Positions 320-64,000 of a stretch of 64,000 nt of DNA are shown piece after piece. The notes under the pieces were generated by a model. It was not told the origin of the DNA. It made no database searches and saw nothing but the letters and a program-made list of their open reading frames with translations. Made by a program: the position numbers and the translations under genes. The DNA is taken from IMG/VR virus record IMGVR_UViG_3300025000_000078, positions 10,947 through 74,946 of that record; one strand, given 5' to 3'. The DNA comes from a virus. Numbering within the stretch: position 1 is the first letter of the stretch; every line of letters begins with the position of its first letter.

Positions 320-727
320 CGATATATTCACATTGGTCGTCAGTCAATGCAGTTCTCTTATGAACTTCCCTAATTTTCACTAGGATACTAGACTATATCT
401 TCATCCTTAATACAATAATGTATTAAGGAGTTACCCATTTCGTAAAGAACTCTGAAAAGTTCACCTCACCATTATTGACTTGTGAGTCTACTCCTACTCT
501 ACTAAAAGTAGCGTCATCAGATAGTCGTTGAACTTTATTCTAATAATATTAATATATTAGAATCTTAGCTGCGGATTACCTAATTTCTTACCTTGTTACC
601 ATACCTAAGGCATTACCCTTCGCCACTATAATATTGCTATTATAGTTTGGTAGTAAGAGATTTAAAGGGCTTCCCCGACAATTAAAGTAGTATTAACATA
701 ATATTACTATTATGCCACCCTAAATTT
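320..727 (-). mobile_element. Group I intron (recA intron 2), ORF-less, family A
   Basis: Core elements on the minus strand: TTGTCGGGGAAG (P), AATCCGCAGCTAAG (Q), TTCAACGACTATC (R), AAGATATAGTCTAG (S). The upstream exon ends in U and pairs with intron GGGUG. The intron ends in G. Confidence 0.9.
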
Positions 728-742
728 AGGTGCATTCCCACC
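728..742 (-). CDS. uvsX: RecA/UvsX micro-exon 2 (15 nt, GGNAP)
   Basis: GGT GGG AAT GCA CCT lies between two introns and restores DQSIP-GGNAP-IYYA, matching the RecA PGGNALKFYA motif. Confidence 0.85.
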
Positions 743-1131
743 CGTAATGTTCACACTATTCGTTAGATAGTGCAGTTCTCCTATGAACTTCCCTAGAATT
801 TCCCTAGGATACCAGACTATATCATCATCTCTATATTTTCATATATAGATGCTTCCTATTTCGATTTAAGGGAATCTCACCCACTCACTTGAGCCCTACT
901 CCTATTGCTTATTTCAAAGCCAAGGGATAGTCGTTGAACCTTTCTCTAATAAATTAGAGGCTTGGCTGCGGATCACTCAATCCTAAAACATTATTACTAT
1001 ACCTTAGATAGTTAATCTAAGCCATTAATACATTACTATATTAATTTAGTAGTTTTAGGCTCTAAGAGATTCCCCGACAATTAAAGAAGTTATTCAACAT
1101 ACATTACTGTATGAGGACCCACAAATCTCGA
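743..1131 (-). mobile_element. Group I intron (recA intron 1), ORF-less, family A
   Basis: Same P/Q/R/S elements; exon ACCU pairs with intron GGGU; ends ...CATTACG. Confidence 0.9.
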
Positions 1132-7202: not shown

Positions 7203-8183
7203 CGATATATTCACATAGGTCGTTAATCTATGCAGTTCTCTTATGAACTTCCTTATCTTTCGATAAGATACTAGACTATATCATTAACCTAATAACTTTC
7301 ATTAGGTTACTTCCCATTTCGATTTAAGGGATTTTCACCCACTCACTTGAGCCCTACTCCTATTGTGTATTTTAACACTAGGATAGTCGTTGAACTTTAT
7401 TCTTATTTTCAATTTTATAATTTTTCGAAATATGATCCCATTTACCATATTTTATCCCATCTATTAAACTATAAAAACTATTATTATCTTTTCTTTTTTT
7501 ATAGCCATAGATATGCATTATTTGCATTTGAGTAAGTCCTTTCTCAAGATATTTACAAATATCTTCTACTATCTCTTCCGAATATTTAGCATAATAATTT
7601 AAACTACCTTTACAACCAAATCTACTTTTACTATGAATTAAACTAAATTCATTATTTTCTTTGGTTGTAACCCATTCAAGATTCTCATAATAATTATTAA
7701 ATGTGCATGTGTCTTTATGATTTACATTCGTTCTTTTTTGTTCTTTATTATAACCATTAACAAATTCCCATGCAACAAGTCTATGGGTTCCAACAATTTT
7801 TACTTTTTTAGTTTCACCAATTAAAACTGAGTATAAATATCCTTTTTTATCAGAATATGGATTTATTATTTTATTGATGTGTATATCTTTAACTTTACCA
7901 AAATTACTTATTAAGTAGCTATTTTTTTTAATAAATGGGTATGTGATAATTCGAAAAATTTCTTTATCTTTTTTAATAATTATATACATTTATTATCATC
8001 CTTTTTAAAATAAATTAAATAAATGTATAATAATATATTAAAAAAAATACTTAATTAATAAATAAGAATCTTAGCTGCGGATTACTCAATCTTTTTATTA
8101 TATAATAAAAAGCTCTAAGAGCTTCCCCGACAATTAAAGAAGTTTTCTATATATGTTACCATATATAGGGGCTAAGCTATGTA
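7203..8183 (-). mobile_element. Group I intron with HNH endonuclease ORF, family A
   Basis: P1: exon GGGU pairs with intron GCCC. P/Q/R/S elements present, with the ORF between Q and R. Ends ATATATCG. Confidence 0.9.
7378..7989 (-). CDS. Intron-encoded HNH homing endonuclease (NUMOD4-HNH-HTH type)
   Basis: YLISNFG, HRLVA, VNHKD...NNYYENLEWVT..EN; the C-terminal VQRL overlaps the intron R element. Confidence 0.88.
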   Translation of the reverse strand: MYIIIKKDKEIFRIITYPFIKKNSYLISNFGKVKDIHINKIINPYSDKKGYLYSVLIGETKKVKIVGTHRLVAWEFVNGYNKEQKRTNVNHKDTCTFNNYYENLEWVTTKENNEFSLIHSKSRFGCKGSLNYYAKYSEEIVEDICKYLEKGLTQMQIMHIYGYKKRKDNNSFYSLIDGIKYGKWDHISKNYKIENKNKVQRLS

Positions 8184-9282: not shown

Positions 9283-9305
9283 ATATTTTTTCATTAAAAA
9301 TATTA

Positions 9306-16919: not shown

Positions 16920-17045
16920 ATTTATCAACCTTTCTTTTTAAGTATTTTATACTAATGTTGAAAGTATAGATATGGATGAATATACTTATTATTAATATAA
17001 ATACTAAAATAAAATACTAGTATATACTAGTATTTTATTAATAAG

Positions 17046-18062
17046 TTAACCTCTTTTATATATAGTTATATAAGGTGATGTATCATGCGCTACAGCTAAA
17101 TAATTACCATCTGGTGAGAAAGAACAACCATAACCATTACCTGTAGGTAATATACTTGGATTAGATAATTTAGTAAAGGTATCACCATTTCTTTTATATA
17201 TAATTATATAAGGTGTTGTGTAATGTGCTACAGCTAAATAATTACCATCTGGTGAGAAATAACAACCTCTACCAGTACTTGTAGGTAATATACTTGGATT
17301 ATCTAATTTAGTAAATGTATCTCCACTTCTTTTATATATAGTTATATTAGGTGTTGTGTAATGTGCTACAACTAAATAATTATTATCTGGTGAGAAAGAA
17401 CAACCATAAGCACCACCTGTAGGTAATATACTAGGATTAGATAATTTAGTAAATGTATCTCCACTTCTTTTATATATAGTAATATAAGGTGATGTATTAT
17501 GTGATACAGCTAAATAATTATTATCTAATGAAAAAGAACAACCTGTACTATAATTTGTAGGTAATATACTAGGATCAGGTAATTTAGTAAATGTATCACC
17601 ACTTCTTTTATATATAGTTATATAAGGTGATGTATTATGTGATACAGCTAAATAATTACCATCTGGTGAGAAATAACACCCATAACCATTACCTGTAGGT
17701 AATGTACCAGGATTATCTAATTTAGTAAATGTATCTCCACTTCTTTTATATATAGTTATATAAGGTGATGTATCATGTGCTACAGCTAAATAATTATTAT
17801 CTGGTGAGAAAGAACATCCATAACCAGTACCTGTAGGTAATATACTAGGATTAGGTAATTTAGTAAAGGTATCACCTTCCCTTTTATATATAGTTATATA
17901 AGGTGAAGAACTATGTGCTACAGCTAAATAATTATTATCTGGTGAGAAATAACAACCATAACTAATACCTGTGGGTAATATATTAGATTCATCTAATTTA
18001 GTTAATATACTATTATTATTATTATTATTAAAACTACTCATTAACATTAAGTTACTTAACAT
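17046..18062 (-). CDS. Seven-bladed beta-propeller (WD40-like) repeat protein
   Basis: Seven 47-aa repeats (FTKL.NP.ILPT....GC.FSPD.NYLAV.H..SPYITIYKR); late promoter at 18091-18102. Confidence 0.85.
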   Translation of the reverse strand: MLSNLMLMSSFNNNNNNSILTKLDESNILPTGISYGCYFSPDNNYLAVAHSSSPYITIYKREGDTFTKLPNPSILPTGTGYGCSFSPDNNYLAVAHDTSPYITIYKRSGDTFTKLDNPGTLPTGNGYGCYFSPDGNYLAVSHNTSPYITIYKRSGDTFTKLPDPSILPTNYSTGCSFSLDNNYLAVSHNTSPYITIYKRSGDTFTKLSNPSILPTGGAYGCSFSPDNNYLVVAHYTTPNITIYKRSGDTFTKLDNPSILPTSTGRGCYFSPDGNYLAVAHYTTPYIIIYKRNGDTFTKLSNPSILPTGNGYGCSFSPDGNYLAVAHDTSPYITIYKRG

Positions 18063-31706: not shown

Positions 31707-32714
31707 CGTTGGTTCACATAGGTCGTTAATCTATGCAGTTCTCTTAAGAACTTCCCTAGTTTTCACTAGGATACCAGACTATATCATTATCTCTCGGTAT
31801 AAGAGATATTTCCCGTTTCGATTTAAGGGATTCTCACCCACTCACTTGAGCCCTACTCCTAATGCTTATTTCAAAGCCAAAGGGATAGTCGTTGAACCTT
31901 GTTATTAAATATCGTATAAATTACTTATATGTCTCCATGATTTTTTATTTCTTATTTTTTTAATTAAATCTATAGTTTTTGGTTTATTTCGTATATCATC
32001 ATTATGTTTTATTCTATCATATATTTTACCCTGACTTAAACCTTGTTTGTGTAATAAACATATCTGATGAACTGTTTCTTCATTATAAACATTTAATACA
32101 CTATTAATCCCTCTAGGATTCCATAATCCAATTTTTATAGCATGTACATTATTTTCTGAAGGAGTTACCCATTCAAGATTTTGATAATAATTATTATTTT
32201 TAAAACCATCTTTATGATTAACAAATATTTTATATTTAGAATTAGGAAAATCTAAAAAATGTTTGGCTACTAATTTATGAATTGATTGATTTATAAAAGT
32301 AGCTTTATTTCTATATAAAGAAACTTTTAAATAACCATTTGGTCTCTTTTGAGGTTTTAAAATCTTATTTGATGTTTTAGAATAAACTCTACCATAATTA
32401 CTTAAAAGATAATCTGGGAAAAGAGGCATCTGTTTCCATTCTTCATTAATAATTATTTGTATAAGTAATTTATTCATTTTTATTTTTTCACCCCTTTATT
32501 TTATACGATTTTATTTTGAGTTTAAATATTTTTATACGATATTTAATAACCTTGGCTGCGGATCACTCAATCCTAAACATTATTACCATACCTAAGACAT
32601 TATTCTTAGCCACTAAAATATTTCTATTCTAGTTTGGTAGCTTAGACTATAAGAGATTTCCCGCAATTAGAGAAATTTTCATATGATATTTCTACCATAT
32701 GCCGCATATAATTT
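31707..32714 (-). mobile_element. Group I intron (dnaB intron 2) with HNH ORF, family A
   Basis: P1 GCCGU/GCGGC; P/Q/R/S elements; ORF enclosed by an extended P6 stem (31902-31920 pairs with 32531-32549). Confidence 0.9.
31905..32477 (-). CDS. Intron-encoded HNH homing endonuclease
   Basis: EEWK...SNYGRV (NUMOD4), HKLVA, VNHKDG.K.NN...NLEWVT.SEN..HA. Confidence 0.9.
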   Translation of the reverse strand: MNKLLIQIIINEEWKQMPLFPDYLLSNYGRVYSKTSNKILKPQKRPNGYLKVSLYRNKATFINQSIHKLVAKHFLDFPNSKYKIFVNHKDGFKNNNYYQNLEWVTPSENNVHAIKIGLWNPRGINSVLNVYNEETVHQICLLHKQGLSQGKIYDRIKHNDDIRNKPKTIDLIKKIRNKKSWRHISNLYDI

Positions 32715-32743
32715 ACGGCTATTGCGCCAGTTCTATTTAATTG
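32715..32743 (-). CDS. dnaB: DnaB micro-exon 2 (29 nt, QLNRTGAIAV)
   Basis: Restores the helicase motif VITAH-QLNR and keeps frame into exon 3. Confidence 0.85.
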
Positions 32744-33073
32744 CTTTATTTTCATACTATTCGTTAAATAGCACAGTTCTCTTATGAACTTCCCTAAGTT
32801 TCCTTAGGATAAAAGACTATATCATTATCTCTTATTTAAAGAGATACTTTCCTTTTCGATTTAAGGGATTCTCACCCACTCACTTGAGCCCTACTCCTAT
32901 TGTGTATTTCAACACCTATGGGATAGTCGTTGAACCTTTCTCTAATAGTTTATTAGAGACTTGGCTGCGGATTACTCAATCTTTTTATTGTATAATAAAA
33001 AGCTCTAAGAGCTTCCCCGACAGTTAAAAAAGTTTTTCATTATAAATCACTTTATAATGCCACCTATAAATTG
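32744..33073 (-). mobile_element. Group I intron (dnaB intron 1), ORF-less, 330 nt, family A
   Basis: P1 CCAU/GUGG; P/Q/R/S elements; ends AAATAAAG. Confidence 0.9.
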
Positions 33074-39147: not shown

Positions 39148-39207
39148 TAAAACTAAATTAATTATATTAAATATTTTTTATTTAATAAAGGAGGGAATTA
39201 ATAAATT

Positions 39208-51080: not shown

Positions 51081-52160
51081 CCTAGAGTAATGTATTTTCA
51101 TACATTAGAGACTATATTTTCATCCTATTATAATTTATAATAGGAGCTATGCGCTTCCCAGCTAACCCACAAATTAGCCAGTACTCCACTTATTCATATT
51201 TAATATATTCTATTATATATGAATTTGGGATAGTCGTTATACCTTCTTCTATTAATCTATAAAGTTTTTTATAATTTTCATTAATTGCTTTATCATAGAT
51301 TTCTTTACGTTTATTTTCATCTAAGTAAAACACATAATGTTCCTTTATTTTACATGGCATTCGTAAAGCATTTTTTACTTTATCTTTATTCATATCAATA
51401 AAATCACCAAATAATTTAGCACTATCACAGATATAAAATTTATCATCTTTGATTGCTATTATTTTATTAGATTTTTTTCTTTTAGTTTCAGCAGTTTCTT
51501 TTAAACCCTTATGAGATTCAGACATCTCTTTCTAACATCATTATTGAATATTCTTCTTTTATCTAAATTTGAATTGTATCCTTTATTATAGTCAAGTGAA
51601 TCATATTCTTTTATATAATTGATTTCTTTTTCAGATAATTCAATTTCACTAAAACAATATTCAAGAATCTCATATTCAAAGTTTTCAAACCCATATTCTT
51701 CAATAGCTCGGGCTATTGGATAATTGGCCTCTTTCCAACTATTTCTATGCTTACTTATTCTTTTTCTAAAATTAGTGGTTCGTCCAATATAGATTTTATC
51801 ATTAATCTTATTTCTTAAAAGATAGACCACACCATATGGTTTAATTTTAATATCTATTGTTAACAATTTTATAACCTCCTTTCTTTTATGTTGTTTTAGC
51901 AATTAAATTATAGATTATAGATTAATAGAAGCTTGGCACGGTATTACCTGCTATCCATATTCCAGGACCGTAGGTTCTCTTAGAAAGTGTATTCGCTTAT
52001 GGACATGTCACATAGACAAGGCTTGTAATTGTCATACAAGCAATCTTATTTAACTTTTACCGTTAGCAAGTAATAATAAAATATTACTTACACCGCTTGT
52101 TAGGCGTTCACATAGAACTCGCTATATCATTACTGATACGCCGGACCTCGACTTAGATTG
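51081..52160 (-). mobile_element. Group I intron (beta' intron 3) with GIY-YIG remnant, family B
   Basis: P1 CGGAU/GUCCG; CTAACGGT (P), AATACCGTGCCAAG (Q), TAACGACTATC (R), AAATATAGTCT (S). Confidence 0.88.
51190..51866 (-). pseudogene. Frameshifted GIY-YIG/NUMOD3 homing endonuclease
   Basis: GVVY...IYIG...R domain (51501-51902) and the NUMOD3-like MSESHKG part (51190-51525) join with one added nucleotide near 51527. Confidence 0.8.
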
Positions 52161-52274: not shown

Positions 52275-53311
52275 CTAAAGGTTCACATAGGTCGTTACTC
52301 TATGCAGTTCTCTTATGAACTTCCCTAACTCTCATTAGGATACCAGACTATATTATCATCTTTATATAAGTTATAAAGAGACACCTATTTCGATTTAAGG
52401 GAATTTCACCCACTCACTTGAGCCCTACTCCTGTTGTACATTTCAGTACTTAAAGGATAGTCGTTGAACTTTTCTTATACTGTTCAGTATTTATATTTGT
52501 TTGTAATATGTGACCATCTTTCCTTTCTTTTAATTTTACCAATAAAATTTTTTAACAGAATATCTGATTTTTTATCATATTCTGTAAAATTTAATCTAAT
52601 TAATTTAAGTATTTTATCAACAGATTCATTACACACTAATAATTTACAAATAAATTTAACAAGCTTTTCAGTATAAATTGAAGCAAAATGTGCTTCACCC
52701 TTATATTGCCAATGTAACCCCATTTTAACTGCATGTCTGATATTATCACCATGAGTTGACCATTCTAGATTTTTATAATAATTATTTCTTTTAATTCCAT
52801 TTTTATGATTCACTTCTATTTTGTTTAAATCATCATTTTTTACAAATTCATAACAAACCAGTCTATGAATACTAAATTGTCTTTCTTTAATAATTTCTTC
52901 CCCTGTTTGTAATGCAAGTCTATAGTATCCAGCTGAACCTAATTGTTGTGATAAAATATGGTCCCAATTTTTATTTTTTATTCTACCATGATCTGATATT
53001 TGATAAAGATTATTTTTAACACCTGGATAGGTAACATCTTTCCATACTTCAGTTCCTATTTCTATAAAAACTTTCATTTGTATCACCTCCTCCTAAAGAA
53101 TTAATTTAAAGATGTCATGTTTATTGAACAGTATTAAGTTTAGCTGCGGATCACTCAATCCTAAAACCTTATTACTATACCTTGGTTGATTAGTCCAAGC
53201 CATTAATATATCACTATATTAATTTAGTAGTTTTAGGCTCTAAGAGCTTCCCCGACAATTAAAGTGTTGTTTTCTTCACTATAAATCACTCTATAGTGCC
53301 CCACAAAGTTT
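52275..53311 (-). mobile_element. Group I intron (beta' intron 2) with HNH ORF, family A
   Basis: P1 CCCU/GGGG; splits NRNP|T, the equivalent of beta' NRAPT. Confidence 0.9.
52484..53086 (-). CDS. Intron-encoded HNH homing endonuclease
   Basis: EVWK...SDHGRI, HRLV, VNHKNG.K.NN...NLEW.T...N..HA. Confidence 0.9.
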   Translation of the reverse strand: MIQMKVFIEIGTEVWKDVTYPGVKNNLYQISDHGRIKNKNWDHILSQQLGSAGYYRLALQTGEEIIKERQFSIHRLVCYEFVKNDDLNKIEVNHKNGIKRNNYYKNLEWSTHGDNIRHAVKMGLHWQYKGEAHFASIYTEKLVKFICKLLVCNESVDKILKLIRLNFTEYDKKSDILLKNFIGKIKRKERWSHITNKYKY

Positions 53312-53543: not shown

Positions 53544-54949
53544 CGATATATTCACATTAGTCGTCAGCTAATGCAGTTCTCTTATGAACTTCCTTATCTT
53601 TCGATAAGATACTAGACTATATCTTCATCCATTATATAATCAGTATAATGGAGCTCTCCATTTCGTAAAGAATTCTTTAAGAATTCACCCTACCATTTAT
53701 TGACTTGTAGGTCTACTTCTACTCACATATTTAAAGTATGTTTTCGAATAGTCGTTGAACTTTATTTTTCACCAGTTATTTTTTAATAATCATATTAAGA
53801 AGTAATGATTGTCCGAACATTTCTTCTCTTTAAATCATAAATTAAATTTTGATAATGTATTTTTTCTTTAATAGGTATATTAATTATTTTTATTATATCA
53901 GTGGTTTTATAACCTTTCTCCAAGTATTGACATATTAAATGAATCAAATCATCACTATATATTTTTTTATCTAATCTTTCAGTAGAAAAATTATATTTTT
54001 TTGATATATTTCTACGAGTTTTAAAGTGACGAATATCACCAATTAATTTAGCGTAACTTCCTTTTTCTTTTTCAACTACACCTAATTCTTTTATTATATC
54101 TCTGGGATATAAACCTTTTTCTAAATATTGACATATAGTATGAATTAGTTCATCAGAAAATTCCCGTTTAAATTTTTTATTAGAAAAATTATATTCACTG
54201 GTTATATCAGCCCAATCACATTTAGCTTTTAATCTATGGATTAAATCACCAAAAGATTTCTTATCTTTATTTTCAATATTCATTAGTTTTATTATTTTTT
54301 TAGGTGATAAATCCTTTTCAATATATTCACACACTTGTCTTATTACCGGTTCAGTATATTTAAAATTAACACAAAATCCTCTTTTTTTCTTTATATTCCC
54401 GTGTTTAAAACCGTGAAGAATATTTTCACTTTGAGTAGTCCATTCTAAATTCCATTTATGACATATATATCTCTGATTATTTAAATGATTAACCACACAT
54501 TTTTTATCACTATATCCCTCAACAAAATGCCACGCTACAATTCTGTGAACAGTATATGTTTTTTTCTTAACTAGATTCTTTACTTTTAATCTAATACGTA
54601 AATACCCATCTGGACATAGTGCTTTAGTATAGATCTTTCCTGTTTTACCATGGTTACTTACAGAATATAGATTTGATTCAATATCCCTATAATTTATAGT
54701 TTCCCATTTTTCTTCTTCTAAAATAAATGTTATATACAATGTTAATTACCACCTCCTTATTATAAATTTTTGAACAATTTTCTATTTCTCACTGGTAAAA
54801 AATCTTAGCTGCGGATTACTCAATCCTAAAACCTTATTACTATACCTTAGATGATTAATCTAAGCCATTAATATATCACTATATTAATTTAGTAGTTTTA
54901 GGCTCTAAGAGCTTCCCCGACAATTAAAAGAGTTACGTTGCGTATTTCC
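53544..54949 (-). mobile_element. Group I intron (beta' intron 1) with HNH ORF, family A
   Basis: P1 CGUUGU/GCAACG; splits SARCVV|IPDP; ends ATATATCG. Confidence 0.9.
53795..54739 (-). CDS. Intron-encoded HNH endonuclease with three C-terminal HTH-like repeats
   Basis: HRIVA, VNHLN...NLEWTT.SEN..H; I..(V/I)C.Y(I/L)EK repeated three times. Confidence 0.88.
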   Translation of the reverse strand: MYITFILEEEKWETINYRDIESNLYSVSNHGKTGKIYTKALCPDGYLRIRLKVKNLVKKKTYTVHRIVAWHFVEGYSDKKCVVNHLNNQRYICHKWNLEWTTQSENILHGFKHGNIKKKRGFCVNFKYTEPVIRQVCEYIEKDLSPKKIIKLMNIENKDKKSFGDLIHRLKAKCDWADITSEYNFSNKKFKREFSDELIHTICQYLEKGLYPRDIIKELGVVEKEKGSYAKLIGDIRHFKTRRNISKKYNFSTERLDKKIYSDDLIHLICQYLEKGYKTTDIIKIINIPIKEKIHYQNLIYDLKRRNVRTIITS

Positions 54950-55839
54950 ACAACGCAGCGGGCTGAAAAGTTGATCTTACCCCCAAGAATTTCCCATTTT
55001 ATATGACCTTTTCTTTGGTCTATTTGTTTAAATATTAAGTAGCATAGCTCAATTAATTTCTTTTGAATTATAGTAAGAATTTTATTTTCATCAATATCAC
55101 CCCAGTCTTTCTTCTTTCTAGTTTCTATTAATTCTCTATCTTTTAATAATCTACTTAAAGAAACTATTGGATTATATTTTTTATCCATAGAGTTATAAAA
55201 GAAAGATTCACCTTTAAATTGAGAGGGTCTCAATACAGATGAATAAACTGGAATAGATGAAGCGAATACTTTATCTTTTTCTTTATATAATTCATCTATC
55301 ATTTCAATCTTATTCTTTTTCTTAGCTCTATAATAATCCATTATTTCATCAAATCTACTTTTAAACTCCATAATACCAATACCTTTAAATGGAGTTTTAC
55401 CATGTTTATCAATTATATGACCATCTTTAGTATATTCTTTGTCATATTCAATAATTTCTAAAAATCCCTTTTCACCAATTATTGATTTCAACATTCTATA
55501 GAATATAGGATGGATTATACTATAAACACCTAATTTAATCCAACCTGTAATTTTTAAATCAACATCTTTAAATTTAACTATTGTACCACAAATATCACAC
55601 TCTTCTTCATCATATAATCTTCCTTTTAATTCTCCGCATTCACATGTATATCTTTCTGCAAATGCATCATCATCTTCAAAATCTGTAGCAAATAGAGGAG
55701 ATTGAATACCATACTTAGATTTCTTCTGCTTTCCTTTAAAAGCAGGTTCTTTTATTTCAAAACCTTTACCTATAATAAAATCTTTTTCACACTCCTCATC
55801 CCAATTTAGTTTTACTAATCTAACCTCATCATGTTTCAA
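54950..55839 (-). CDS. rpoC: RNA polymerase beta' N-terminal subunit, exon 1 (probably non-virion RNAP)
   Basis: Zn finger CECG...CDIC, GWI.L, IPV....LRP, KG.I...ILGGKINFSAR; early motif at 55913-55920. Spliced product is about 471 aa. Confidence 0.9.
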
Positions 55840-55979
55840 TAATTAAACCTCCTTTAGAATAAATATTTTACCTTATTAAAAAGTTCTTAGAGTTTTAAAA
55901 CTCTACTAAAATATAATATATGTATAAAAAAAATATTGTTTATCAGAAAATAATAATCTGATAAACAATAATAAATAAA

Positions 55980-56372
55980 TTAATTCTTAATAACTTGAAC
56001 TACATCTAATTCCCAAGGTTCATCACCCATATTTAGAGCAATGAAAATCTGTTTAATTATATTAAGCGGTTTAAATTCTTTAAGTCTTTCTCTAATTAAC
56101 ATAGGTGCGTTTTTATCATCATATTTAATCTGATCTATTTTTTTCTTTAACTCCTCAGCCTTAGTAATAATTTCTTTCTTAACAGCTTCTGCTTCTTCAA
56201 CAGTATCAAAAAAGATATAATTAGACTCATCACCAAATAGGGGTAGGGGTATTAATTCCATATCTTTAGATATGTGTTTACTACCATACAATGAATTAAG
56301 ATAACTAAATTTCAATGAATAACCTAAAATAGTATCTTTACAAATTTTACGTTCGTCTTCTGTATAATTCAT
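55980..56372 (-). CDS. Hypothetical protein
   Basis: 130-aa ORF with RBS and early motif. Confidence 0.65.
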   Translation of the reverse strand: MNYTEDERKICKDTILGYSLKFSYLNSLYGSKHISKDMELIPLPLFGDESNYIFFDTVEEAEAVKKEIITKAEELKKKIDQIKYDDKNAPMLIRERLKEFKPLNIIKQIFIALNMGDEPWELDVVQVIKN

Positions 56373-56451
56373 AAACTAACCTCCCTATAAAATTACCTAT
56401 ATTAATTAAATAATATATAATTTTATAGTTTGTATTTACTATTTTATCACT

Positions 56452-56679
56452 TTAAATATCCCATTTCATATTTTCTTTAATTGTATTTAATAATAGCTTT
56501 TTATACTCTTTTTTCTTCTTTAATACTTCATCAACACTATCTTCAGAATGAATAAAAACTATAACTGTTTCTTGACCAACAGGATTTTTTATTAACAACC
56601 TTGTAGTTGTTTTTGTTTCTTTATCTATCCACTTATGTGTACTATCATGCACATCTATAACTAACTCAAAACCCACCAT
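56452..56679 (-). CDS. Hypothetical protein
   Basis: 75-aa ORF with RBS. Confidence 0.55.
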   Translation of the reverse strand: MVGFELVIDVHDSTHKWIDKETKTTTRLLIKNPVGQETVIVFIHSEDSVDEVLKKKKEYKKLLLNTIKENMKWDI

Positions 56680-56702
56680 TTTTTCTATCTTCCTCTCATT
56701 TT

Positions 56703-57128
56703 CTATAACTCGTTTTTTCTATTATCTAATTCCATTAATGTGTGATTTAATACTGCTATTTGCATTGCATATATTTCTTTCATATGTCCTTCTTTTTTAG
56801 TTTCATAAAGAACTTCAGATATTTCTATTTTATTCTTTATCCAAATAGATAAATTATTTATTCTGTTATTAGTTCTGAATAGTTCATTACTTAGTCTAAC
56901 ATTTTCATCATGAAAATGTTGTCTACTACGAATAAGTTGTTCTTTTGTTACATGTTTAAAGAGTTTTTCCTCAATCTCAGTTAATGTTATTTCAACATTA
57001 ATATCAGAAAGTTTAATTATTTTAACATTATCATCAACATTAACTTTTTCCTCTTGACTACGAATCCAATAATCTCTCATAAATTTGTCTCGTTCAGCAA
57101 CTATTAATCTTTCACAACATTCTTTCAT
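56703..57128 (-). CDS. Hypothetical protein
   Basis: 141-aa ORF with RBS. Confidence 0.6.
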   Translation of the reverse strand: MKECCERLIVAERDKFMRDYWIRSQEEKVNVDDNVKIIKLSDINVEITLTEIEEKLFKHVTKEQLIRSRQHFHDENVRLSNELFRTNNRINNLSIWIKNKIEISEVLYETKKEGHMKEIYAMQIAVLNHTLMELDNRKNEL

Positions 57129-57230
57129 TATATTTCATCTCCTTTTAATTTATATACATAACAAACAATAATTTCAATATCAACAAAAATTTGTTTTATT
57201 TTATTGTAACTTTACCCAATTAATATTTAG

Positions 57231-57704
57231 TCAACTAAATACTTTAACTAATTTTTCTAATAAATCTTGATAAATATACCACTCTTTACAACAATCTTCT
57301 TTTGAATATCCAACTATACATTCATTTATACTTGGAATTAAACCTCTACCACCCATAGGACGTTCATTGAATGGTAAACTACACCCATGTTCTGTTAATA
57401 ACATACACTGACCACCCCAAGAAGGGTCAACAATATTTGCATCTTTATTTCTTATTCTAAGATATAATGTACGTCTTCTATTTTTATCAAAGACGTCTCC
57501 TTCCCACCAATCAATTGATACAACATATCCTTTTTCAATTAAATTCTTTAAAGTTTTAAAATCTATAACTTCAAAATCTTTAGGTGAAAAATGACATCCC
57601 AAATTCTTACAACATTTACCTTTACATTCAACACATAATTCAAGATTTTCATTATTATTTTGAAAATTATTATCTATTTGTATATTTAATATATTAAATA
57701 TCAT
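57231..57704 (-). CDS. YkgJ-like Cys-cluster (Zn/Fe-chelating) protein
   Basis: CVECKGKCC...C.LL...GC....ERP motif. Confidence 0.7.
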   Translation of the reverse strand: MIFNILNIQIDNNFQNNNENLELCVECKGKCCKNLGCHFSPKDFEVIDFKTLKNLIEKGYVVSIDWWEGDVFDKNRRRTLYLRIRNKDANIVDPSWGGQCMLLTEHGCSLPFNERPMGGRGLIPSINECIVGYSKEDCCKEWYIYQDLLEKLVKVFS

Positions 57705-57766
57705 TCCCTCCTACAAAATTAAATATATTTATATTTTTTAGAACTTTTAATTTACTATATATTAGT

Positions 57767-59062
57767 CTAAATTATATTTAAATTTCTCATGTTATCTTTA
57801 TAAGTATTAAAACTTTTAACATGTTCATTTTTACTTTTAGTAAGAATAATGGACGTTGTTTCAACAGCCTCTTCAATAGTCAAATCATTATTACAAGCTA
57901 ATAAATATTTAGTACCAGTCATGATTTCTTTTAGACTACCCATGGGTAAATTATTACTATATTTAACAAAAAGTTCTATAACTCCCTTATTAGTATCAGA
58001 TCCACTATCATCTTTATAAACTTTATATTCCGATAATAATTCTCCAATATTTCTATTTTGGAAAAATGCACGACGTATATTTTCTGATGGGTTGTCAATC
58101 TTATATGTGCGATCAAAACGACCTGATCTATTCATAAAGGCAGGATCAATATGTTCAGGATAATTTGTTGTACCAATGAAATATACACCAGATTGAATAT
58201 CAATACCATCGAGAATATTTAAAAATTCAGATCTATTTCTTCCATTAATTAATGAATCAATATCTTCAATTATAATAATAGCCCTTTTACCATTTAGTGA
58301 TTTAATCAATATAGATAAAATTTTAGGCATATCATTAATATTAGGATTTATAACTATTTTAGTAATTCTCGGCAGTATTCTGATAATCTCCCGTATCATG
58401 GCACTTTTACCATTACCAGGTTCACCATATAGAATAACCCCTCGCTTGTATGTAATTTGTAATTTTTTATACATATTATGAGTCTCTTCTTTAAAGAATA
58501 AATCAATATCTTTCATAACTTCCATTATTGTTGAATCTTCAGTAAATATAAGTTTTTCTTTAATAATTTTTTTCTTCACAATATCAGCAGGTTTCTTTTC
58601 ATGATTAGAAGAATTAGATATTTCGATATATTCTCTGTTTCTACATTTAAAATCGATTTCTCGAAACATATTTGTATTAGTATCCCGTTGTAATATTAGC
58701 TTTGCATTTTTTGAAAATATCTCTAAATAATCAGTGTCAATTAGAAAAGTACATCGAACATAGTAACTATTAGTTGTATATAGTACAATAGAATTAATTT
58801 TTTTAGACACAGCAATACGCTGGAACATATTAAAATTAGATGATAATTCATAACCACTAATCATTTCTGGTTGAGGAAGGGTATCAGGGTAATCATAAAC
58901 ATTCCCTATATCTTTAAATTTACACTTACGGAGGATATCTTTAATAATTTCTTCACCATATACTTGAAAATCAACCTTTTGATAATTCTCTAAATAGATA
59001 TTAAGTTCAAACATTTCTTCATTAATTAATTTAATAAGTGCTAATTCCATACATCTATCCAT
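57767..59062 (-). CDS. AAA+ ATPase
   Basis: YKRGVILYGEPGNGKS, IIEDID, TTNYPE.IDPA..NRSGRFD. Confidence 0.9.
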   Translation of the reverse strand: MDRCMELALIKLINEEMFELNIYLENYQKVDFQVYGEEIIKDILRKCKFKDIGNVYDYPDTLPQPEMISGYELSSNFNMFQRIAVSKKINSIVLYTTNSYYVRCTFLIDTDYLEIFSKNAKLILQRDTNTNMFREIDFKCRNREYIEISNSSNHEKKPADIVKKKIIKEKLIFTEDSTIMEVMKDIDLFFKEETHNMYKKLQITYKRGVILYGEPGNGKSAMIREIIRILPRITKIVINPNINDMPKILSILIKSLNGKRAIIIIEDIDSLINGRNRSEFLNILDGIDIQSGVYFIGTTNYPEHIDPAFMNRSGRFDRTYKIDNPSENIRRAFFQNRNIGELLSEYKVYKDDSGSDTNKGVIELFVKYSNNLPMGSLKEIMTGTKYLLACNNDLTIEEAVETTSIILTKSKNEHVKSFNTYKDNMRNLNII

Positions 59063-59168
59063 ATTATCACACTCCTCGTTATTTTATTTTCATTTTAATA
59101 ATATATAATTGAAAAGATATATGGCAATTAATTGCCATATATCTTTTTTAATACTTTATTTACATCTT

Positions 59169-60545
59169 TTAAATATGTGTTCCTCTATCTTTAAGTTCTG
59201 ATTTCTTGGCACTATTAAACATATTTATTGTACTTAAATAACCTGTAATTCTTCTAACCCTATTAATATCTTCGGAACCACAACTTGGACAATCTTTAGG
59301 ATATACTCCCGAATAATTACATGAACAACAAAAATCAACTGGGAAATTAAGTCCACCATAACCTACATCACAATCTTTCATATGTTTAATAATATTGATT
59401 AAAGCTTCAGTATTATTAATAAACGGAGAATCTGCTTCAATATAAGTAATATGCCCACCATTACAAAACTTGTGAAATACTCCTTCTAACATAATTTTTT
59501 TAAACCAACTAATCTTATAACCAACTGGTATATGAAAACTATTAGTATAATAATCCTTATCTGTAACTCCAGGAATTATACCGAATTGTTTTCTATCAAT
59601 CCTTAAAAATCTACCTGAAAGTCCTTCAGCTGGAGTTGCTAATAAAACTATATTGAGCTTTCTTTTAATTGTTTCTCTATCACAAAAATCTCTCATGGTT
59701 TTAATAATATTTAACCCAAGCTTATATACTTCATCATCTTCACCATGATGTTTACTAGTTAAAGCAATTAATGTTTCAGCAAGACCAATAAACCCAATAG
59801 ACATTGAACCATGTTTAATAGATTCTTCTATATTATCGTTTTGACTTAATTTTTCAGAATCCAAATATAAACCCTGCCCCATAATAAAAGGCATATCTCT
59901 TACAAGTAATTTCTTTTGTACGTTATATCTATGATTAAGTTGTTCAAATATGAGATTTGATTTAATCTCAAGTAGTGTGAAGAATTTTTCAATACTACCT
60001 TTTGATTCTATTGCAAGTCTGGGTAAATTTAATGTTGTAAATGATAAGTTACCTCTTTTATCTGTAGTTTCAGAACCATTAATATTTGCAATAACACGGG
60101 TTCTACAACCCATATATGCTACTTCTGAATCACCTGTGTACTGTTTATTTAAACTAGCATCCATGAATGAAAATGTTGGATTTAATTTAATGGCAGCTAC
60201 TTCACATGCAAGTTTAAATAAATCATAATTTGGGTCCCCAACTTGACCATTCACACCATCTTTAACTTTAAAAATAATATTTGGGAAAATTGGATTTTCA
60301 CCTTTACCCAAACCAGCTTTATATGCAAGTAAAATATTCTTCGTTACTTTTCTACCAGCATCACTCATATCAGTACCAATATTTAAACTACTGAAAGGGA
60401 CTTGTGATCCTGCTCGAGAGTGCATACTATTTAAATTATAAATAAATGCTTCACATGCTTGATATGCTTCATTATCACTAGCATCAACAAAAAAGTCAGC
60501 CATATCACGATCAAAAAAAGCAAATGATTGACCACCATGCATATC
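59169..60545 (-). CDS. nrdD: Anaerobic ribonucleoside-triphosphate reductase, exon 2
   Basis: DMHGGQS, SRAGSQVPFSS, YMGCRT, ATPAEGL, YYTNS, Zn site and glycyl-radical motif RRITGYL. Confidence 0.93.
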   Translation of the reverse strand, partial: DMHGGQSFAFFDRDMADFFVDASDNEAYQACEAFIYNLNSMHSRAGSQVPFSSLNIGTDMSDAGRKVTKNILLAYKAGLGKGENPIFPNIIFKVKDGVNGQVGDPNYDLFKLACEVAAIKLNPTFSFMDASLNKQYTGDSEVAYMGCRTRVIANINGSETTDKRGNLSFTTLNLPRLAIESKGSIEKFFTLLEIKSNLIFEQLNHRYNVQKKLLVRDMPFIMGQGLYLDSEKLSQNDNIEESIKHGSMSIGFIGLAETLIALTSKHHGEDDEVYKLGLNIIKTMRDFCDRETIKRKLNIVLLATPAEGLSGRFLRIDRKQFGIIPGVTDKDYYTNSFHIPVGYKISWFKKIMLEGVFHKFCNGGHITYIEADSPFINNTEALINIIKHMKDCDVGYGGLNFPVDFCCSCNYSGVYPKDCPSCGSEDINRVRRITGYLSTINMFNSAKKSELKDRGTHI

Positions 60546-61082
60546 CACTGTACCGCCTCTTTCGAGGTATTTCAAACGGGTTAGACTATATCATATACCT
60601 ATTTTTTTATATAGGTACCCTGGTACTTCGGATCGGGATTTTCACCCTAATTACCCCTACTCTACTCGCTTCGTGTATCATAATCATATAATACCTTATT
60701 TTCAACACCAAAAAGATGTCTTAGCTTTCGATAGTCGTTAGCGTTTCCCTAATATTTTTTATATTTAAATTCCCACCCTTTATGTTTTTTAACCCAGATA
60801 TTTTTATTAATAGCATAATTATTTTTATAAAGGGTTAGTGGGATTTTTTAAAATAGTAGGGCTTACGACGGTATTACCTGCTATCCATATTCCAGGACCG
60901 TAGGTTCTCTTAGAAAGTGTATTCGCTTATGGACATGTCACATAGACAAGGCTTGTAATTGTCATACAAGCAATCTTATTTAACTTCTACCGTTAGCAAG
61001 AGTTTTTAAACTCTCACACCCATCTATTGATGGTTCACCAGGTTATTCAATGTACATTACTGTACAAGGGAACAAATTAATT
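60546..61082 (-). mobile_element. Group I intron in nrdD, family B, with endonuclease remnant
   Basis: P1 GAAU/GUUC; P/Q/R/S elements; splicing restores QSCQN|DMHGGQ. Confidence 0.9.
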
Positions 61083-61712
61083 ATTCTGACAGCTTTGTAA
61101 AATTATAGCTGCTAAAGCAGTTGCACTATTTGTTCTTTTAGGGGTTCTAATCCAACCATGACCATTATTAAACCCCCTAGTTAATATTTTTTTAAGGGGT
61201 ATTTGTAAACAGGTTAAAGTTTTTCCATAAAAATCCAAATCATGTATATGCATATAGCCTTCCCTATGAGCAGATGATATTTCTTCAGGTATTAATCTAG
61301 ATAAATAATACTTTCTTGAAGCTTCACCTGCAATCTGTAACATTTTAGCCATTGGTCCTGTACCAATATTAGCATTTTCTCTTGAAGTTTCTTTTAATAT
61401 ATCTTCAACACAATCCATTAATTCACTTCGCCCATCTCTAATACGTGTTCTTTTATTTCTATATAAGATATATGCTTTTGCAGTTTTAGCTCTTCCGTTA
61501 TCAATTAAAACAGTTTCAACTATATCCTGTATGTCTTCAACATTATGTATTTCTTTATCTAAATCTTTTAATCTATCATAAACTTCTAAAGCTAATTCAA
61601 AAGAGGTTGAACTATCCTTACCACCTAAAGATTTTGCTGCTTCAAAAATACAATTAGCAACTGTTTCAATTTTAAATTCAACTATCCTACCATCACGTTT
61701 TTTAACTTGCAT
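61083..61712 (-). CDS. nrdD: NrdD exon 1 (ATP cone)
   Basis: VKKRDGR...VEDIQD.VE (ATP cone), ENAN, HIHDLD, TCLQ. Confidence 0.93.
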
Positions 61713-61743
61713 TTTTTATACCCCTCCGTTTTTTATTTGATTA

Positions 61744-62292
61744 TTAAATAGAATACTTATAATAAATTTCCTTTATTACTTCTGCATCCCATAATGCATT
61801 ATGTTTAAAAACTTCAGACTTAATTTTTATATCTGCTAATTTTTCTCTATTAGCATTAAAAGCTTTATGAGCATCTTTATTAAAATAATCAATTATGTCA
61901 TTATTTATATCATAACAAGCTGGACAGATATTTTTAGGTAAGTCAAGAGCTGAGCCAAATAAATCGATAAGTAATACAAAATCGTAGTGACATACATCTG
62001 AAACAAATAAAATTTCTTCATTACCAAATTTACTCAACCATTTCTTCAATCCTTCTAATACGAATTTTTTACTACCATAATAATAATATTCTGGTAAATC
62101 TTTCATTTGTTTATTTTTCCACCAAAGTTTGTCAATAACATTTTTTTGTATCCAATCATCTACTTGCGATTTATTATAATCATTGAATTCAGCGTAAAAT
62201 TTATCATCATTTTCTGATATAATACCTAATGAAATTAAAGTAGTATCCTTATGCAACCCTGTGAACTCGGTATCAAAAAATAATTCTATCAT
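61744..62292 (-). CDS. DEDDh 3'-5' exonuclease (Rv2179c-like)
   Basis: FFDTEFTGL, FYAE and HNALWDA motifs. Confidence 0.85.
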   Translation of the reverse strand: MIELFFDTEFTGLHKDTTLISLGIISENDDKFYAEFNDYNKSQVDDWIQKNVIDKLWWKNKQMKDLPEYYYYGSKKFVLEGLKKWLSKFGNEEILFVSDVCHYDFVLLIDLFGSALDLPKNICPACYDINNDIIDYFNKDAHKAFNANREKLADIKIKSEVFKHNALWDAEVIKEIYYKYSI

Positions 62293-62308
62293 TTATTATT
62301 ACCACCTT

Positions 62309-63355
62309 TTATTTTTTATTTAACCAGTTAATTAATTGATTTCTTGATTGTTCATTATATAAAAAGAATTGTGATACACAGCCTCCTCCACATCTTCTTA
62401 ATTTATCACATTTATTAACACATATTTCTGGAATTTTTCTCGTTCTTAGAAAAAAGAGAAGTTCATTATGAACCCATATATCATGTAAATTTGTTTTTAA
62501 AATATTGGTAGGTGTTATAAAATCACCTAACCATTTAAATGCTTCACATGGAAATACATCACCTCTAGCTGAAATATTTAATTTGTTAATACCTACTGAG
62601 CATGGTTTATTATTTTTATCATCAGTTATACAATTAAAAGGACAACCATATCTAATAGATAAATCAGTATATTTTTTATTAACAATTTTATTATTTATTT
62701 CTTTTAATAAAAATTGCATATTATCTACACTAACTTCTAATTCATTATTATTTAAACATCTTCCTTGTGGAACAAGTCTTAATAAACTTATTCGCTTAAT
62801 ATTAATATCATTAATTATATCCAATAAATCTAAAAATTCATTATAATTTATATTCATAGGTACAAAATGAATTTCTGTTTCAATATTATATTTTAAACAA
62901 CTTTTAATTGAATTTATAATAGTGTTAAAACCATTTTTAATTTTAACTATTTTTTGTATAGTTTCATCATTTGATCCATGTAAACTTATTATAATCTTAT
63001 TAATATTTTCTTTTAGAAATATAAGAGTATCTTCAGTTATAGAAGAATGTTTGTTATTATTATATATAATCCCACAACTATATACTGTAATATGTAAACC
63101 TAAATCTTTAGCAAAAGAAAATATTTCTTTAAATTCAGGGTGAATTAATGGTTCACCTCCTGATATAGATAAATTTTCAACACCTTCATTAACAGCATCT
63201 ATTAATATCTTTTTTATATCTTCAAATAATAACATATCTTTACTTTTAGAACTAGCTTTAGATGAACAGTGTATACAATTTAACATACATTTATTAGTTA
63301 TTTCTATACATAAATTTTTTAAACTAATATCTGAAAATAATTGACACATTCTCAT
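62309..63355 (-). CDS. Radical SAM protein with SPASM domain
   Basis: CMLNCIHC, SGGEP, C..G...I...GDV.PC, C...C.....C.GGC. Confidence 0.9.
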   Translation of the reverse strand: MRMCQLFSDISLKNLCIEITNKCMLNCIHCSSKASSKSKDMLLFEDIKKILIDAVNEGVENLSISGGEPLIHPEFKEIFSFAKDLGLHITVYSCGIIYNNNKHSSITEDTLIFLKENINKIIISLHGSNDETIQKIVKIKNGFNTIINSIKSCLKYNIETEIHFVPMNINYNEFLDLLDIINDINIKRISLLRLVPQGRCLNNNELEVSVDNMQFLLKEINNKIVNKKYTDLSIRYGCPFNCITDDKNNKPCSVGINKLNISARGDVFPCEAFKWLGDFITPTNILKTNLHDIWVHNELLFFLRTRKIPEICVNKCDKLRRCGGGCVSQFFLYNEQSRNQLINWLNKK

Positions 63356-63370
63356 TTAAATACTCCTTTT

Positions 63371-63804
63371 TTATATAATCAAATCTTTTAGTTCAACATG
63401 TGATATTTGGGTTGTCGAATTGTGAAATTTCTTCATTGATAAATTAACCAATGTAGATGATACTCTAGCTGAAGTTAAACCAATATTAATTATATTTAAT
63501 TTTCCATACATAAGACCAGCGCACTTTTCACATAATTTCTTAGATGTACAACCCATTGGAGTTCTCATTTTAACTTTAACTCCTAAATATTTATTTATAT
63601 TATTATCATCTAATAAAACTAATTTATTACCTTCTACAATATATCTATATAAATAATCATCAATATTATTTTTAGTTATTACAACTTCCAATAATCCTTT
63701 AGAGCCACAATTACTACCTTTTTCATCTAAAACAACAGCCTGTAATGCGGCAATAATCTTTTTAGAAAAATAACCAGAATCAGCTGTTCCAATAGCTTTT
63801 GGAT
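63371..63804 (-). CDS. rpoC: RNA polymerase beta' C-terminal subunit, last exon
   Basis: PKAIGTADSGYFSKK (bridge helix TA.SGY), CGS, RTP..C....C..CAG and MK.FH (trigger loop); begins after the terminal G at 63805. Confidence 0.85.
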
Positions 63805-64000
63805 CGAAAATTCACATAGGTCGTTAATCTATGCAGTTCTCTTATGAACTTCCTTATCTTTCGATAAGATACTAGACTATATCTTCATCCATTATATAAT
63901 CAGTATAATGGAGCTTCCTATTTCGATTTAAGGGAATCTCACCCACTCACTTGAGCCCTACTCCTATTGCTTATTTCAAAGCCTAAGGGATAGTCGTTGA
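63805..64000 (-). mobile_element. Group I intron 3' half (truncated by window end), family A
   Basis: R, S and P9 sequences match the other family A introns. Confidence 0.88.

What the first reader, a model, noticed from the sequence alone, without database searches (positions are those of the whole stretch)
53566..63990. Family A introns are mosaics of interchangeable modules
Seen: the P5 region is either long (introns at 320, 743, 31707, 52275, 53544) or a short AT hairpin (7203, 32744). The R-to-S region is either the CCCACTCACTTGAGCCCTACTCC type (six introns) or the TTTCGTAAAGAA...TTGACTTGT type (320, 53544). About 85 nt at 53570-53655 and 63830-63915 are identical although the adjacent module differs. 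P1/IGS and P2 are unique to each site and co-vary with the exon. Inference: ectopic gene conversion homogenises and shuffles ribozyme cores among resident introns while the site-specific guides persist.
Basis: partly seen in the sequence, partly recalled or inferred. Interest (0 to 1): 0.75.

Follow-up and report, generated by a model that had tools for sequence, protein, structure and literature searches.

The report
Part-swapping self-splicing introns in jumbo phage
A fragment of an uncultured giant phage carries at least eight related self-splicing introns whose RNA cores are patchworks of shared hairpin modules, while each keeps its own site-specific guide; this is a clear natural case of intron-to-intron recombination, a process already known from phage T4 experiments.

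Summary
The window is part of a 74.9-kb fragment of a jumbo phage that is collinear with a 250-kb IMG/VR phage, here called G001. It holds eight family-A group I introns (IA-like) on the minus strand.

- Window 53571-53655 and 63831-63915 match exactly over 85 nt, while the flanks are only 39% and 61% alike.
- Each module has different nearest neighbours. AU tests reject 11 of 12 foreign-module trees, and PHI gives p<=0.0005.

Sister phages add the strongest evidence. recA intron 2 keeps a P1-P2 guide identical to its G001 ortholog. Its next 214 nt (P3 to mid P7.2) are 100% identical to a non-orthologous G001 intron. The orthologs in two sister phages have the short P5 instead.

Four of the eight introns, including the one at 53544, sit at sites that are empty in G001.

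The shuffling and the persistent guides are supported. Genome-wide homogenisation is not: identity within a genome is about the same as between genomes. Donors could equally be co-infecting relatives.

The process is known from T4 crosses, which I cite from memory. This scan has already noted it in at least seven other genomes. I rate it a rich new member of a known kind.

The parts
320..727 (-). Family-A intron 'i320' (recA/KaiC-like gene, intron 2). It has no ORF, a long P5 and a type II P7.1-P7.2.
   Evidence: Rfam RF00028 scores 60.8 bits. Sequence and P1 (CACCU/AGGGUG) are.
474..687 (-). A 214-nt tract inside i320 (P3, P4-P6, P7, P7.1 and the first half of P7.2). It is 100% identical to the non-orthologous sister-phage intron at G001:227135-227348.
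   Evidence: Exact-match scan. The orthologs in G001 and in a third phage have the short P5 instead.
728..742 (-). A 15-nt micro-exon (GGNAP) between the two recA introns.
   Evidence: Reading frame and P1 pairing.
743..1131 (-). Family-A intron 'i743' (recA intron 1). No ORF, long P5, type I.
   Evidence: Rfam scores 46.7 bits, below threshold.
7203..8183 (-). Family-A intron 'i7203'. It has a short P5 and an HNH/NUMOD4 ORF at 7381-7989 in the P6 loop.
   Evidence: The ortholog at G001:92090-92393 lacks the ORF.
31707..32714 (-). Family-A intron 'i31707' (DnaB-like gene). It has a long P5 and an HNH ORF at 31908-32495.
   Evidence: The site is empty in G001, which fixes the boundaries.
32744..33073 (-). 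Family-A intron 'i32744' (DnaB-like gene). No ORF, short P5.
   Evidence: Rfam scores 86.6 bits. The site is empty in G001.
52275..53311 (-). Family-A intron 'i52275' (RNAP beta'-like gene). It has a long P5 and an HNH ORF at 52487-53092.
   Evidence: The ortholog at G001:135130-135515 lacks the ORF.
53544..54949 (-). Family-A intron 'i53544' (RNAP beta'-like gene, at SARCVV|IP). It has an HNH ORF at 53798-54745, no P2, and a mosaic core.
   Evidence: An empty site in G001 gives exact boundaries. No ortholog was found in IMG/VR.
53571..53655 (-). P8, P7', P9 and P9.1 of i53544, identical over 85 nt to 63831-63915.
53656..53747 (-). The type II P7.1-P7.2 module of i53544. Its nearest relatives are the recA intron-2 copies.
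54805..54928 (-). The P4-P5-P6 domain of i53544, 96% identical to that of the neighbouring intron i52275 (53140-53263).
   Evidence: Exact blocks of 67 and 31 nt are.
63805..64000 (-). Family-A intron 'i63805' (RNAP beta'-C-like gene). Only the 3' half is present, because the contig ends in the R element.
   Evidence: The site is empty in G001.
63831..63915 (-). P8 to P9.1 of i63805, the partner of the 85-nt identical tract.
63913..63983 (-). The type I P7.1-P7.2 of i63805. It matches i743 (851-921) exactly over 71 nt, although the two differ in P8, P9 and P9.2.

Best explanation
Family A is a multi-copy lineage of mobile group I introns. They are IA-like, with P7.1/P7.2, and many carry HNH endonuclease ORFs in the P6 loop. 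They live in the essential genes of a jumbo-phage lineage.

The ribozyme cores are recombinant mosaics. Stretches of roughly 30 to 214 nt have been copied non-reciprocally from one intron copy into another. These stretches are a single hairpin, a run of hairpins, or the whole P4-P6 domain.

The most likely route is homologous recombination, meaning gene conversion during recombination-dependent replication or break repair. It would be seeded by the invariant core blocks that flank every variable hairpin. These blocks include R, a 31-47-nt block in P7.2/J, S, and the 20-nt P9.1.

P1 (plus P2 where present) and P3' stay tied to the insertion site, because an intron whose guide no longer pairs with its exon cannot splice out of an essential gene.

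Shown: the mosaic pattern, the incongruent module histories, guide retention together with core replacement at orthologous sites, intact hairpin pairing, and presence/absence polymorphism.

Inferred: that exchange is at the DNA level and non-crossover, that the conserved blocks are the exchange points, and that selection on splicing is what protects the guides.
For: Module-by-module identity matrices give different nearest neighbours for each module:
- P5 extension: 743/52275/53544 (88-95%) and 7203/32744 (95%).
- P7.1-7.2: 743/63805/31707 (95-98%) and 320/53544 (74%).
- P8-P9.1: 53544/63805 (100%).
- P9.2-tail: 320/53544 (90%).

AU tests reject 11 of 12 foreign-module trees. PHI gives p=0.0002-0.0005 in G000, in G001 and in both together, and 47-68% of informative site pairs are incompatible.

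Exact tracts: 85 nt between i53544 and i63805, 71 nt between i743 and i63805, 67 nt between i52275 and i53544, and 214 nt between i320 and G001:227135-227348.

At the recA intron-2 site, P1-P2 is identical (34/34) to the G001 ortholog. Both sister phages have the short P5, while i320 has the long P4-P6 of another intron. This makes i320 the recipient.

Orthologous pairs are each other's closest relatives only in P3' and P8. In P7.1, P9 and P9.2 the closest relatives are paralogs.

One 28-nt P8 allele occurs in 6 introns, combined with 5 P7.1 alleles, 4 P9 alleles and 4 P9.2 alleles.

Gene order on both sides of every intron is collinear with G001, so the exchanges did not rearrange the genome.

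In 20 aligned copies the P7.1, P9, P9.1 and P9.2 hairpins show compensatory changes and no broken pairs, so the chimeras remain under structural constraint.

The phage encodes its own RecA/KaiC-like recombinase.
Against: No recombination event was observed directly.

Within-genome module identity is no higher than between-genome identity. Concerted evolution inside one genome is therefore not shown.

The best donor-like copy for i320 lies in another phage (G001), and G000 is only about 30% of its genome.

The left edge of the 85-nt tract abuts P3', with almost no shared sequence beyond it. A simple homology-bounded conversion does not explain that edge without later selection on P3'.

PHI can be inflated by correlated changes in RNA stems.

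Splicing of the chimeras was not tested.
Confidence: 0.75

Rival explanations
1. The exchange takes place mainly between co-infecting related phages, not between copies resident in one genome. A shared population-wide pool of module alleles is reshuffled in mixed infections and then spread by homing.
For: Module alleles are shared across genomes as often as within them. The 214-nt perfect match of i320 is to an intron in another phage, whose recA region is only about 80% identical. Three related jumbo phages occur in the same metagenome. Four of the eight introns sit at sites empty in G001, which shows ongoing mobility.
Against: The exchange must still be ectopic, between non-orthologous sites, so this changes where the donor is and not the process. 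The partners of i53544 (i52275 and i63805) are in the same contig, 1.2 and 10 kb away. G000 may well carry its own copy of the 227k-site intron outside the fragment.
Confidence: 0.3
2. Intron-encoded HNH endonucleases cut or nick sister introns, for example ORF-less copies at P6. Repair from the ORF-bearing copy then co-converts the neighbouring ribozyme modules. This would be intron-to-intron homing.
For: All the ORFs sit in the P6 loop. Orthologs differ in whether the ORF is present: i7203 and i52275 carry ORFs and their G001 orthologs do not. The 214-nt tract in i320 is roughly centred on P6. [quoted passage not shown]
Against: i320 and its donor-like copy both lack an ORF. The 85-nt tract (P8-P9.1) is far from P6. 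The ORFs of i52275 and i53544 differ (202 vs 316 aa) although their P4-P6 domains are 96% alike.
Confidence: 0.15
3. The mosaic is an assembly artefact. The metagenome assembler switched between paralogous introns at shared repeats, or collapsed near-identical copies.
For: Both ends of the contig, and the start of G001, break inside intron repeats, so the assembler did struggle here. Bubble-popping could turn about 97% identity into 100%.
Against: The switch points of the i320 tract share only about 20 and about 10-13 nt, which is too short for a de Bruijn path switch. Exon order on both sides of every intron is collinear with an independent 250-kb contig. The same kind of mosaic is seen in independent contigs. 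All stems remain paired.
Confidence: 0.05
4. There has been no recombination. The introns diverged vertically after old duplications, and the shared hairpins reflect conservation or convergent compensatory evolution.
For: Core elements are under strong constraint, and some shared blocks (R, S, P9.1) are invariant in all copies.
Against: The shared tracts include the most variable hairpins. P8 has 50 alleles among 63 copies, yet is identical in six copies that have different flanks. There is a 214-nt perfect match between non-orthologous introns of phages whose recA region is about 80% identical. The AU and PHI tests also argue against it.
Confidence: 0.03

Closest known systems
Recombination and domain shuffling between the td, nrdB and sunY group I introns of phage T4 (Hall, Liu & Shub 1989, Nature; Bryk & Belfort 1990, Nature). 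I cite these from memory; they were not found in the searchable library.
   Same: In both cases related group I introns at different sites of one phage genome recombine through their conserved core elements. The result is chimeric introns that keep a working ribozyme.
   Different: In T4 the events were selected in the laboratory and were crossovers that deleted or rearranged the DNA between the introns. Here the exchanges are natural, numerous and short-tract, and they leave gene order intact. They involve at least 8-20 copies per genome and reach down to single hairpins.
Mosaic omega intron and HEG in yeast mitochondrial 21S rRNA (Wu & Hao 2014, PMC4059233).
   Same: That work also found mosaic intron sequences explained by horizontal transfer plus gene conversion. 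It likewise found independent gain and loss of the endonuclease ORF relative to the ribozyme.
   Different: That case concerns alleles of one intron at one site, compared between species. Here the exchange is between paralogous introns at different sites, with the site-specific guide retained.
Intron-rich jumbo phages, such as the Jug phages with an average of 18.5 group I introns per genome (PMC12880540), and the PhiPA3 gp210 intron in an RNAP gene (PMC11620839).
   Same: These are also jumbo phages whose essential genes (nrdD, polymerases, RNAP) are interrupted by many group I introns and HNH/GIY-YIG endonucleases. G001 has about 19-20 family-A copies.
   Different: In the passages I read, the Jug paper counts introns, validates splicing and lists interrupted genes, and it does not discuss exchange of modules between introns. 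The phages here have about 25% GC and 250-kb genomes, and are unrelated at the DNA level to any cultured phage.
Twort orf142 and SPO1-like phage group I introns (subgroup IA2).
   Same: The P3-P6 region gives 73-77% blastn matches to introns of Bacillus SPO1-like and Staphylococcus Twort-like phages. Both have P7.1/P7.2-type insertions between P7 and P3', and both show several related introns in one gene.
   Different: The copy number is much higher here. Tandem introns are separated by micro-exons of 15 and 29 nt. Alternative P5 and P7.2 architectures occur within one family.

Membership tests
Group I intron (Rfam RF00028), IA-like | Conserved P, Q, R and S core elements in the correct order | tested here: met
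   The motif scan finds P, Q, R and S in order in every complete copy. R, S and P9.1 are invariant in 26 copies.
Group I intron (Rfam RF00028), IA-like | A match to the curated covariance model | tested here: inconclusive
   Two copies score above the gathering score (86.6 and 60.8 bits). Two score below it (46.7 and 29.2). Four are not reported, namely the ORF-bearing or truncated copies.
Group I intron (Rfam RF00028), IA-like | A 5' splice site after a U paired with G in P1, and a 3' terminal G | tested here: met
   P1 pairings with a terminal U.G were read for seven copies. Gap-free alignment of the spliced exons to intron-less G001 fixes the boundaries of i53544, i31707 and i32744 and restores open frames.
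Group I intron (Rfam RF00028), IA-like | Extra P7.1/P7.2 helices between P7 and P3', the hallmark of subgroup IA | tested here: inconclusive
   Two hairpins lie in that position, and the first is supported by compensatory changes. Folding the isolated segments was not better than shuffled controls. No subgroup-specific model was available.
Group I intron (Rfam RF00028), IA-like | Self-splicing activity | not testable with these tools
   RNA-seq runs could not be retrieved. The essential host genes have intact frames once spliced, which is indirect support only.
Ectopic gene conversion among dispersed repeats | Different segments of the same copies have significantly different phylogenies | tested here: met
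   The AU test rejects 11 of 12 foreign trees. PHI gives p<=0.0005.
Ectopic gene conversion among dispersed repeats | Tracts of identity bounded by divergent flanks between non-allelic copies | tested here: met
   Exact tracts of 85, 71, 67 and 214 nt, with flanks 39-61% identical.
Ectopic gene conversion among dispersed repeats | Non-reciprocal exchange with no rearrangement of the flanking DNA | tested here: met
   The contig is collinear with G001:74,555-146,448 across all intron sites. Non-reciprocity itself is inferred from this.
Ectopic gene conversion among dispersed repeats | Donor and recipient reside in the same genome, giving within-genome homogenisation | tested here: inconclusive
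   The partners of i53544 are in the same contig. However, mean within-genome identity equals between-genome identity, and the donor-like copy for i320 is known only from G001.

The most novel reading that the evidence does not exclude
New insertion sites may be colonised by assembling an intron from resident parts. The intron at 53544 sits at a site that is empty in the sister phage and has no ortholog in IMG/VR. It has no P2, and every core module is borrowed: P4-P6 from its neighbour, the type II P7.2 and the P9.2 from the recA intron-2 lineage, and P8-P9.1 from the 63805 intron. On this reading the family behaves as a pool of interchangeable ribozyme parts onto which a new guide can be grafted. 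That would be a natural modular retargeting system, and a ready-made data set on which group I domains are functionally interchangeable.
Probability: 0.25. Interest if true: 0.65.

Novelty: new member of a known kind. Interest (0 to 1): 0.5.

Why it matters
This shows, in natural genomes, that the guide of a group I intron (P1/P2/P3') and its catalytic chassis evolve as separable units. Whole domains, including long and short versions of P4-P6, can be exchanged at one insertion site without losing the host gene.

That result bears on three questions: how mobile introns reach new sites, how fast they turn over compared with their host phage, and which ribozyme modules are interchangeable.

There is also a practical point. 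The repeated cores break metagenomic assemblies: both contig ends lie in introns. Half of the copies are also missed by the standard Rfam model, so intron-split essential genes in such phages are easily mis-annotated.

Tried and rejected
- **Circular genome.** I first took the contig as circular and paired the 5' half at the contig start with the 63805 intron. Collinearity with G001 showed the contig is a linear fragment, so that pairing is wrong. The '63804' column of the 5'-half matrices therefore describes a ninth intron. The AU test left it out.
- **Run-length test.** The GENECONV-like test counted gap columns as sites, so its run lengths are inflated. I rely on the exact-match scan instead.
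- **blastn with a 93% identity filter.** It missed the tracts because HSPs extended into diverged flanks.
- **Regex parsing of modules.** This failed for most copies and I replaced it with alignment columns.
- **Folding isolated P7.1-P7.2 segments.** Z-scores were near zero, which is uninformative.
- **Third phage.** The contig Ga0209318_1000019 could not be opened beyond 1.7 kb.
- **Orthologs of the 53544 intron.** None were found in IMG/VR.
- **Cultured phages.** None share DNA similarity with the backbone.
- **Pfam on the G001:227k intron.** Pfam gave no name for the gene that holds it.
- **Literature.** Searches found no paper on natural module exchange among phage introns.
- **Mitochondrial origin.** Low GC and many introns suggested this at first. 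I rejected it because of the phage gene content and the IMG/VR relatives.

Full report
**What the window is.**
The window covers bases 10,947-74,946 of a single 74,946-bp virus record. It has about 25% GC.

It encodes phage-type genes: a RecA/KaiC-like ATPase, a DnaB-like helicase, NrdD, a type II topoisomerase, RNA polymerase beta'-like fragments, and many HNH and GIY-YIG endonuclease ORFs.

It is collinear, at 75-90% nucleotide identity, with positions 74,555-146,448 of a 249,853-bp IMG/VR record that CheckV rates 100% complete. I call that record G001.

The record is therefore about 30% of a jumbo-phage genome. Both of its ends break inside intron repeats. I first assumed the contig was circular, and that was wrong. 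The half-intron at the contig start is a ninth family-A copy, not the missing 5' half of the intron at 63805.

**The observation.**
Eight related group I introns lie on the minus strand. Their 3' ends are at 320, 743, 7203, 31707, 32744, 52275, 53544 and 63805.

They have the P, Q, R and S elements in order. Each has a U.G pair at the 5' splice site and a terminal G. HNH ORFs, where present, sit in the P6 loop.

Rfam reports two copies above its threshold, two below it, and misses four.

- P5 is long in five copies and a short AT hairpin in 7203 and 32744.
- The R-to-S segment is of one type in six copies and of a longer type in 320 and 53544.
- 53571-53655 equals 63831-63915 exactly over 85 nt. 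The adjoining segments are only 39% and 61% identical.

The intron boundaries are solid. For the introns at 53544, 31707 and 32744, and for the family-B intron at 51081-52160, the spliced exons align without a gap to intron-less G001 sequence and restore open reading frames. At the 63805 site, G001 reads straight through as exon sequence, so that site is also empty there.

That alignment also shows the 53544 intron has no P2. Its P1 hairpin (exon GCGUUGU, guide CGCAACG) leads directly into P3.

**Is it more than chance?**
Each module has its own nearest neighbours:
- P5 extension: 743/52275/53544.
- P7.1-7.2: 743/63805/31707 and 320/53544.
- P8-P9.1: 53544/63805.
- P9.2-tail: 320/53544 and 7203/31707/52275/63805.

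I built maximum-likelihood trees for four partitions and tested each partition against all four trees. The AU test rejects 11 of 12 foreign trees at p<0.05, and the twelfth has p=0.0501.

The PHI permutation test gives p=0.0002-0.0005 for this genome, for G001 and for both together. Between 47% and 68% of informative site pairs are incompatible.

**Evidence from relatives.**
A 26-nt motif of the type I module occurs in 43 IMG/VR stretches, often many per contig. nhmmer finds 63 distinct 3' halves, and G001 alone has about 19-20 copies.

Four of the eight window introns have orthologs in G001: 320, 743, 7203 and 52275. Two of those orthologs lack the ORF. The other four sites are empty in G001, so the family is actively mobile.

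The clearest single result concerns recA intron 2 (320-727):
- Its first 34 nt (P1-P2) are identical to the G001 ortholog.
- Nucleotides 41-254 (P3, P4-P6, P7, P7.1 and half of P7.2) are 100% identical to a different intron, at G001:227135-227348.
- The true ortholog has the short P5 hairpin.
- A third phage from the same metagenome has the same guide, the short P5, and a 3' half like that of the 320 intron.
- The long P4-P6 in this genome is therefore the derived, imported state.
- The recA region of these phages is only about 80-89% identical. A 214-nt perfect tract must be recent.

Across the four orthologous pairs, the orthologs are each other's best match only in P3' and P8. In P7.1, P9 and P9.2 the best matches are paralogs.

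The 28-nt P8 hairpin shared by the 53544 and 63805 introns occurs in six introns. There it is combined with five P7.1 alleles, four P9 alleles and four P9.2 alleles.

In 20 aligned copies the P7.1, P9, P9.1 and P9.2 stems show compensatory changes and no broken pairs. The chimeras therefore remain under structural constraint.

**Anatomy of the focal intron (53544-54949).**
- Its P4-P6 is 96% identical to that of the neighbouring intron at 52275.
- Its P7.2 and P9.2 are closest to the recA intron-2 lineage, with P9.2 95% identical to the G001 copy.
- Its P8-P9.1 is identical to that of the 63805 intron.
- Its P7.1, P1 and HNH ORF are its own.
- Its site is empty in G001, and no ortholog was found in IMG/VR.

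**Mechanism.**
The best-supported reading is non-reciprocal homologous recombination between paralogous intron copies. It would use the invariant core blocks that flank each variable hairpin as homology. Exact blocks of 31-47 nt are shared by many copies.

Gene order is untouched, which points to conversion and not crossover.

The guides persist because these are essential genes, and an intron whose P1 no longer pairs with its exon would be lethal.

These steps are inferred. What is shown is the pattern.

**What is not supported.**
Homogenisation within a genome is not supported. Mean module identity within a genome is no higher than between the two genomes.

Intragenomic donors are not proven either, because exchange during co-infection fits equally well.

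An assembly artefact is unlikely. The switch points share only about 10-20 nt, the exon context is collinear with an independent contig, and independent contigs show the same kind of mosaic.

**Comparison with what is known.**
Recombination between the T4 td, nrdB and sunY introns through their conserved cores is the direct precedent (Hall, Liu & Shub 1989; Bryk & Belfort 1990). I recall these from memory and could not retrieve them.

Jumbo phages with about 18 group I introns per genome are described (PMC12880540).

I found no paper on natural module exchange among phage introns.

This scan has already recorded the same pattern in at least seven other genomes, and in another note on this genome.

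**Verdict.**

It is a well-documented new member of a known kind. Its most useful feature is the three-phage comparison, which shows one guide attached to two different catalytic domains.

Noticed in passing
window 63990-64000 and contig start (G000:C1:1-905): Both ends of the contig break inside family-A intron repeats. G001 also starts inside one (3' half at 42-239). The repeated ribozyme cores fragment metagenome assemblies. The contig is a linear fragment, not a circular genome.
   Followed up: yes
G000:C1:1-905 and about 8,100-9,500 (outside the window, locus L001): There are two further family-A-like introns. One is a 5' half with an HNH ORF (2-703) at the contig start. The other has a family-A-like P4-P6 (5' hit near 9,427) and a 346-aa ORF, but a divergent 3' half (R-like CAACGACCAT at 8,186). 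Its ortholog is at G001:82,695-82,900.
   Followed up: partly
window 51081-52160 and 60546-61082: A second intron family ('B', with R = TAACGACTAT). One copy carries a GIY-YIG ORF and splits the RNAP NAD|FDGD motif; its site is empty in G001. The other copy is in nrdD. The two share a 157-nt repeat at 92% identity (51931-52087 / 60861-61017), so family B may exchange parts as well.
   Followed up: partly
G001:82,968-83,300 (L056:2967-3300): G001 has an extra ORF-less intron, absent from this genome, whose P1-P2 is almost identical to that of the 7203 intron (37-nt exact match). The 5' exon at its site also ends in GGGU. This looks like a copy that landed at a new site matching its guide, as expected for site choice of the reverse-splicing type.
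   Followed up: no
window 728-742 and 32715-32743: Micro-exons of 15 nt (recA, GGNAP) and 29 nt (dnaB, QLNRTGAIA) lie between tandem introns. The dnaB micro-exon aligns exactly to the uninterrupted G001 gene.
   Followed up: partly
window 16423-18011, 38096-39175 and 10423-10925: Long in-frame tandem repeats of 138 nt (9 copies), 129 nt (7 copies) and 36 nt (GC-rich, collagen-like) lie inside large ORFs. The 138-nt repeat matches a repeat array at a non-syntenic place in G001 (231,658-232,738).
   Followed up: no
G001:228,198 (L063:8198) and window 51081: The exon upstream of the G001:228k intron ends in a ...GGDYDG-like motif. This suggests that a second RNAP catalytic-loop gene is also split by a family-A intron at the metal-binding motif.
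   Followed up: no
window 7203-8183, 31707-32714, 52275-53311 and 53544-54949: The Rfam RF00028 model misses or under-scores every ORF-bearing copy. Standard annotation would therefore leave dnaB, recA and the RNAP genes looking fragmented.
   Followed up: yes
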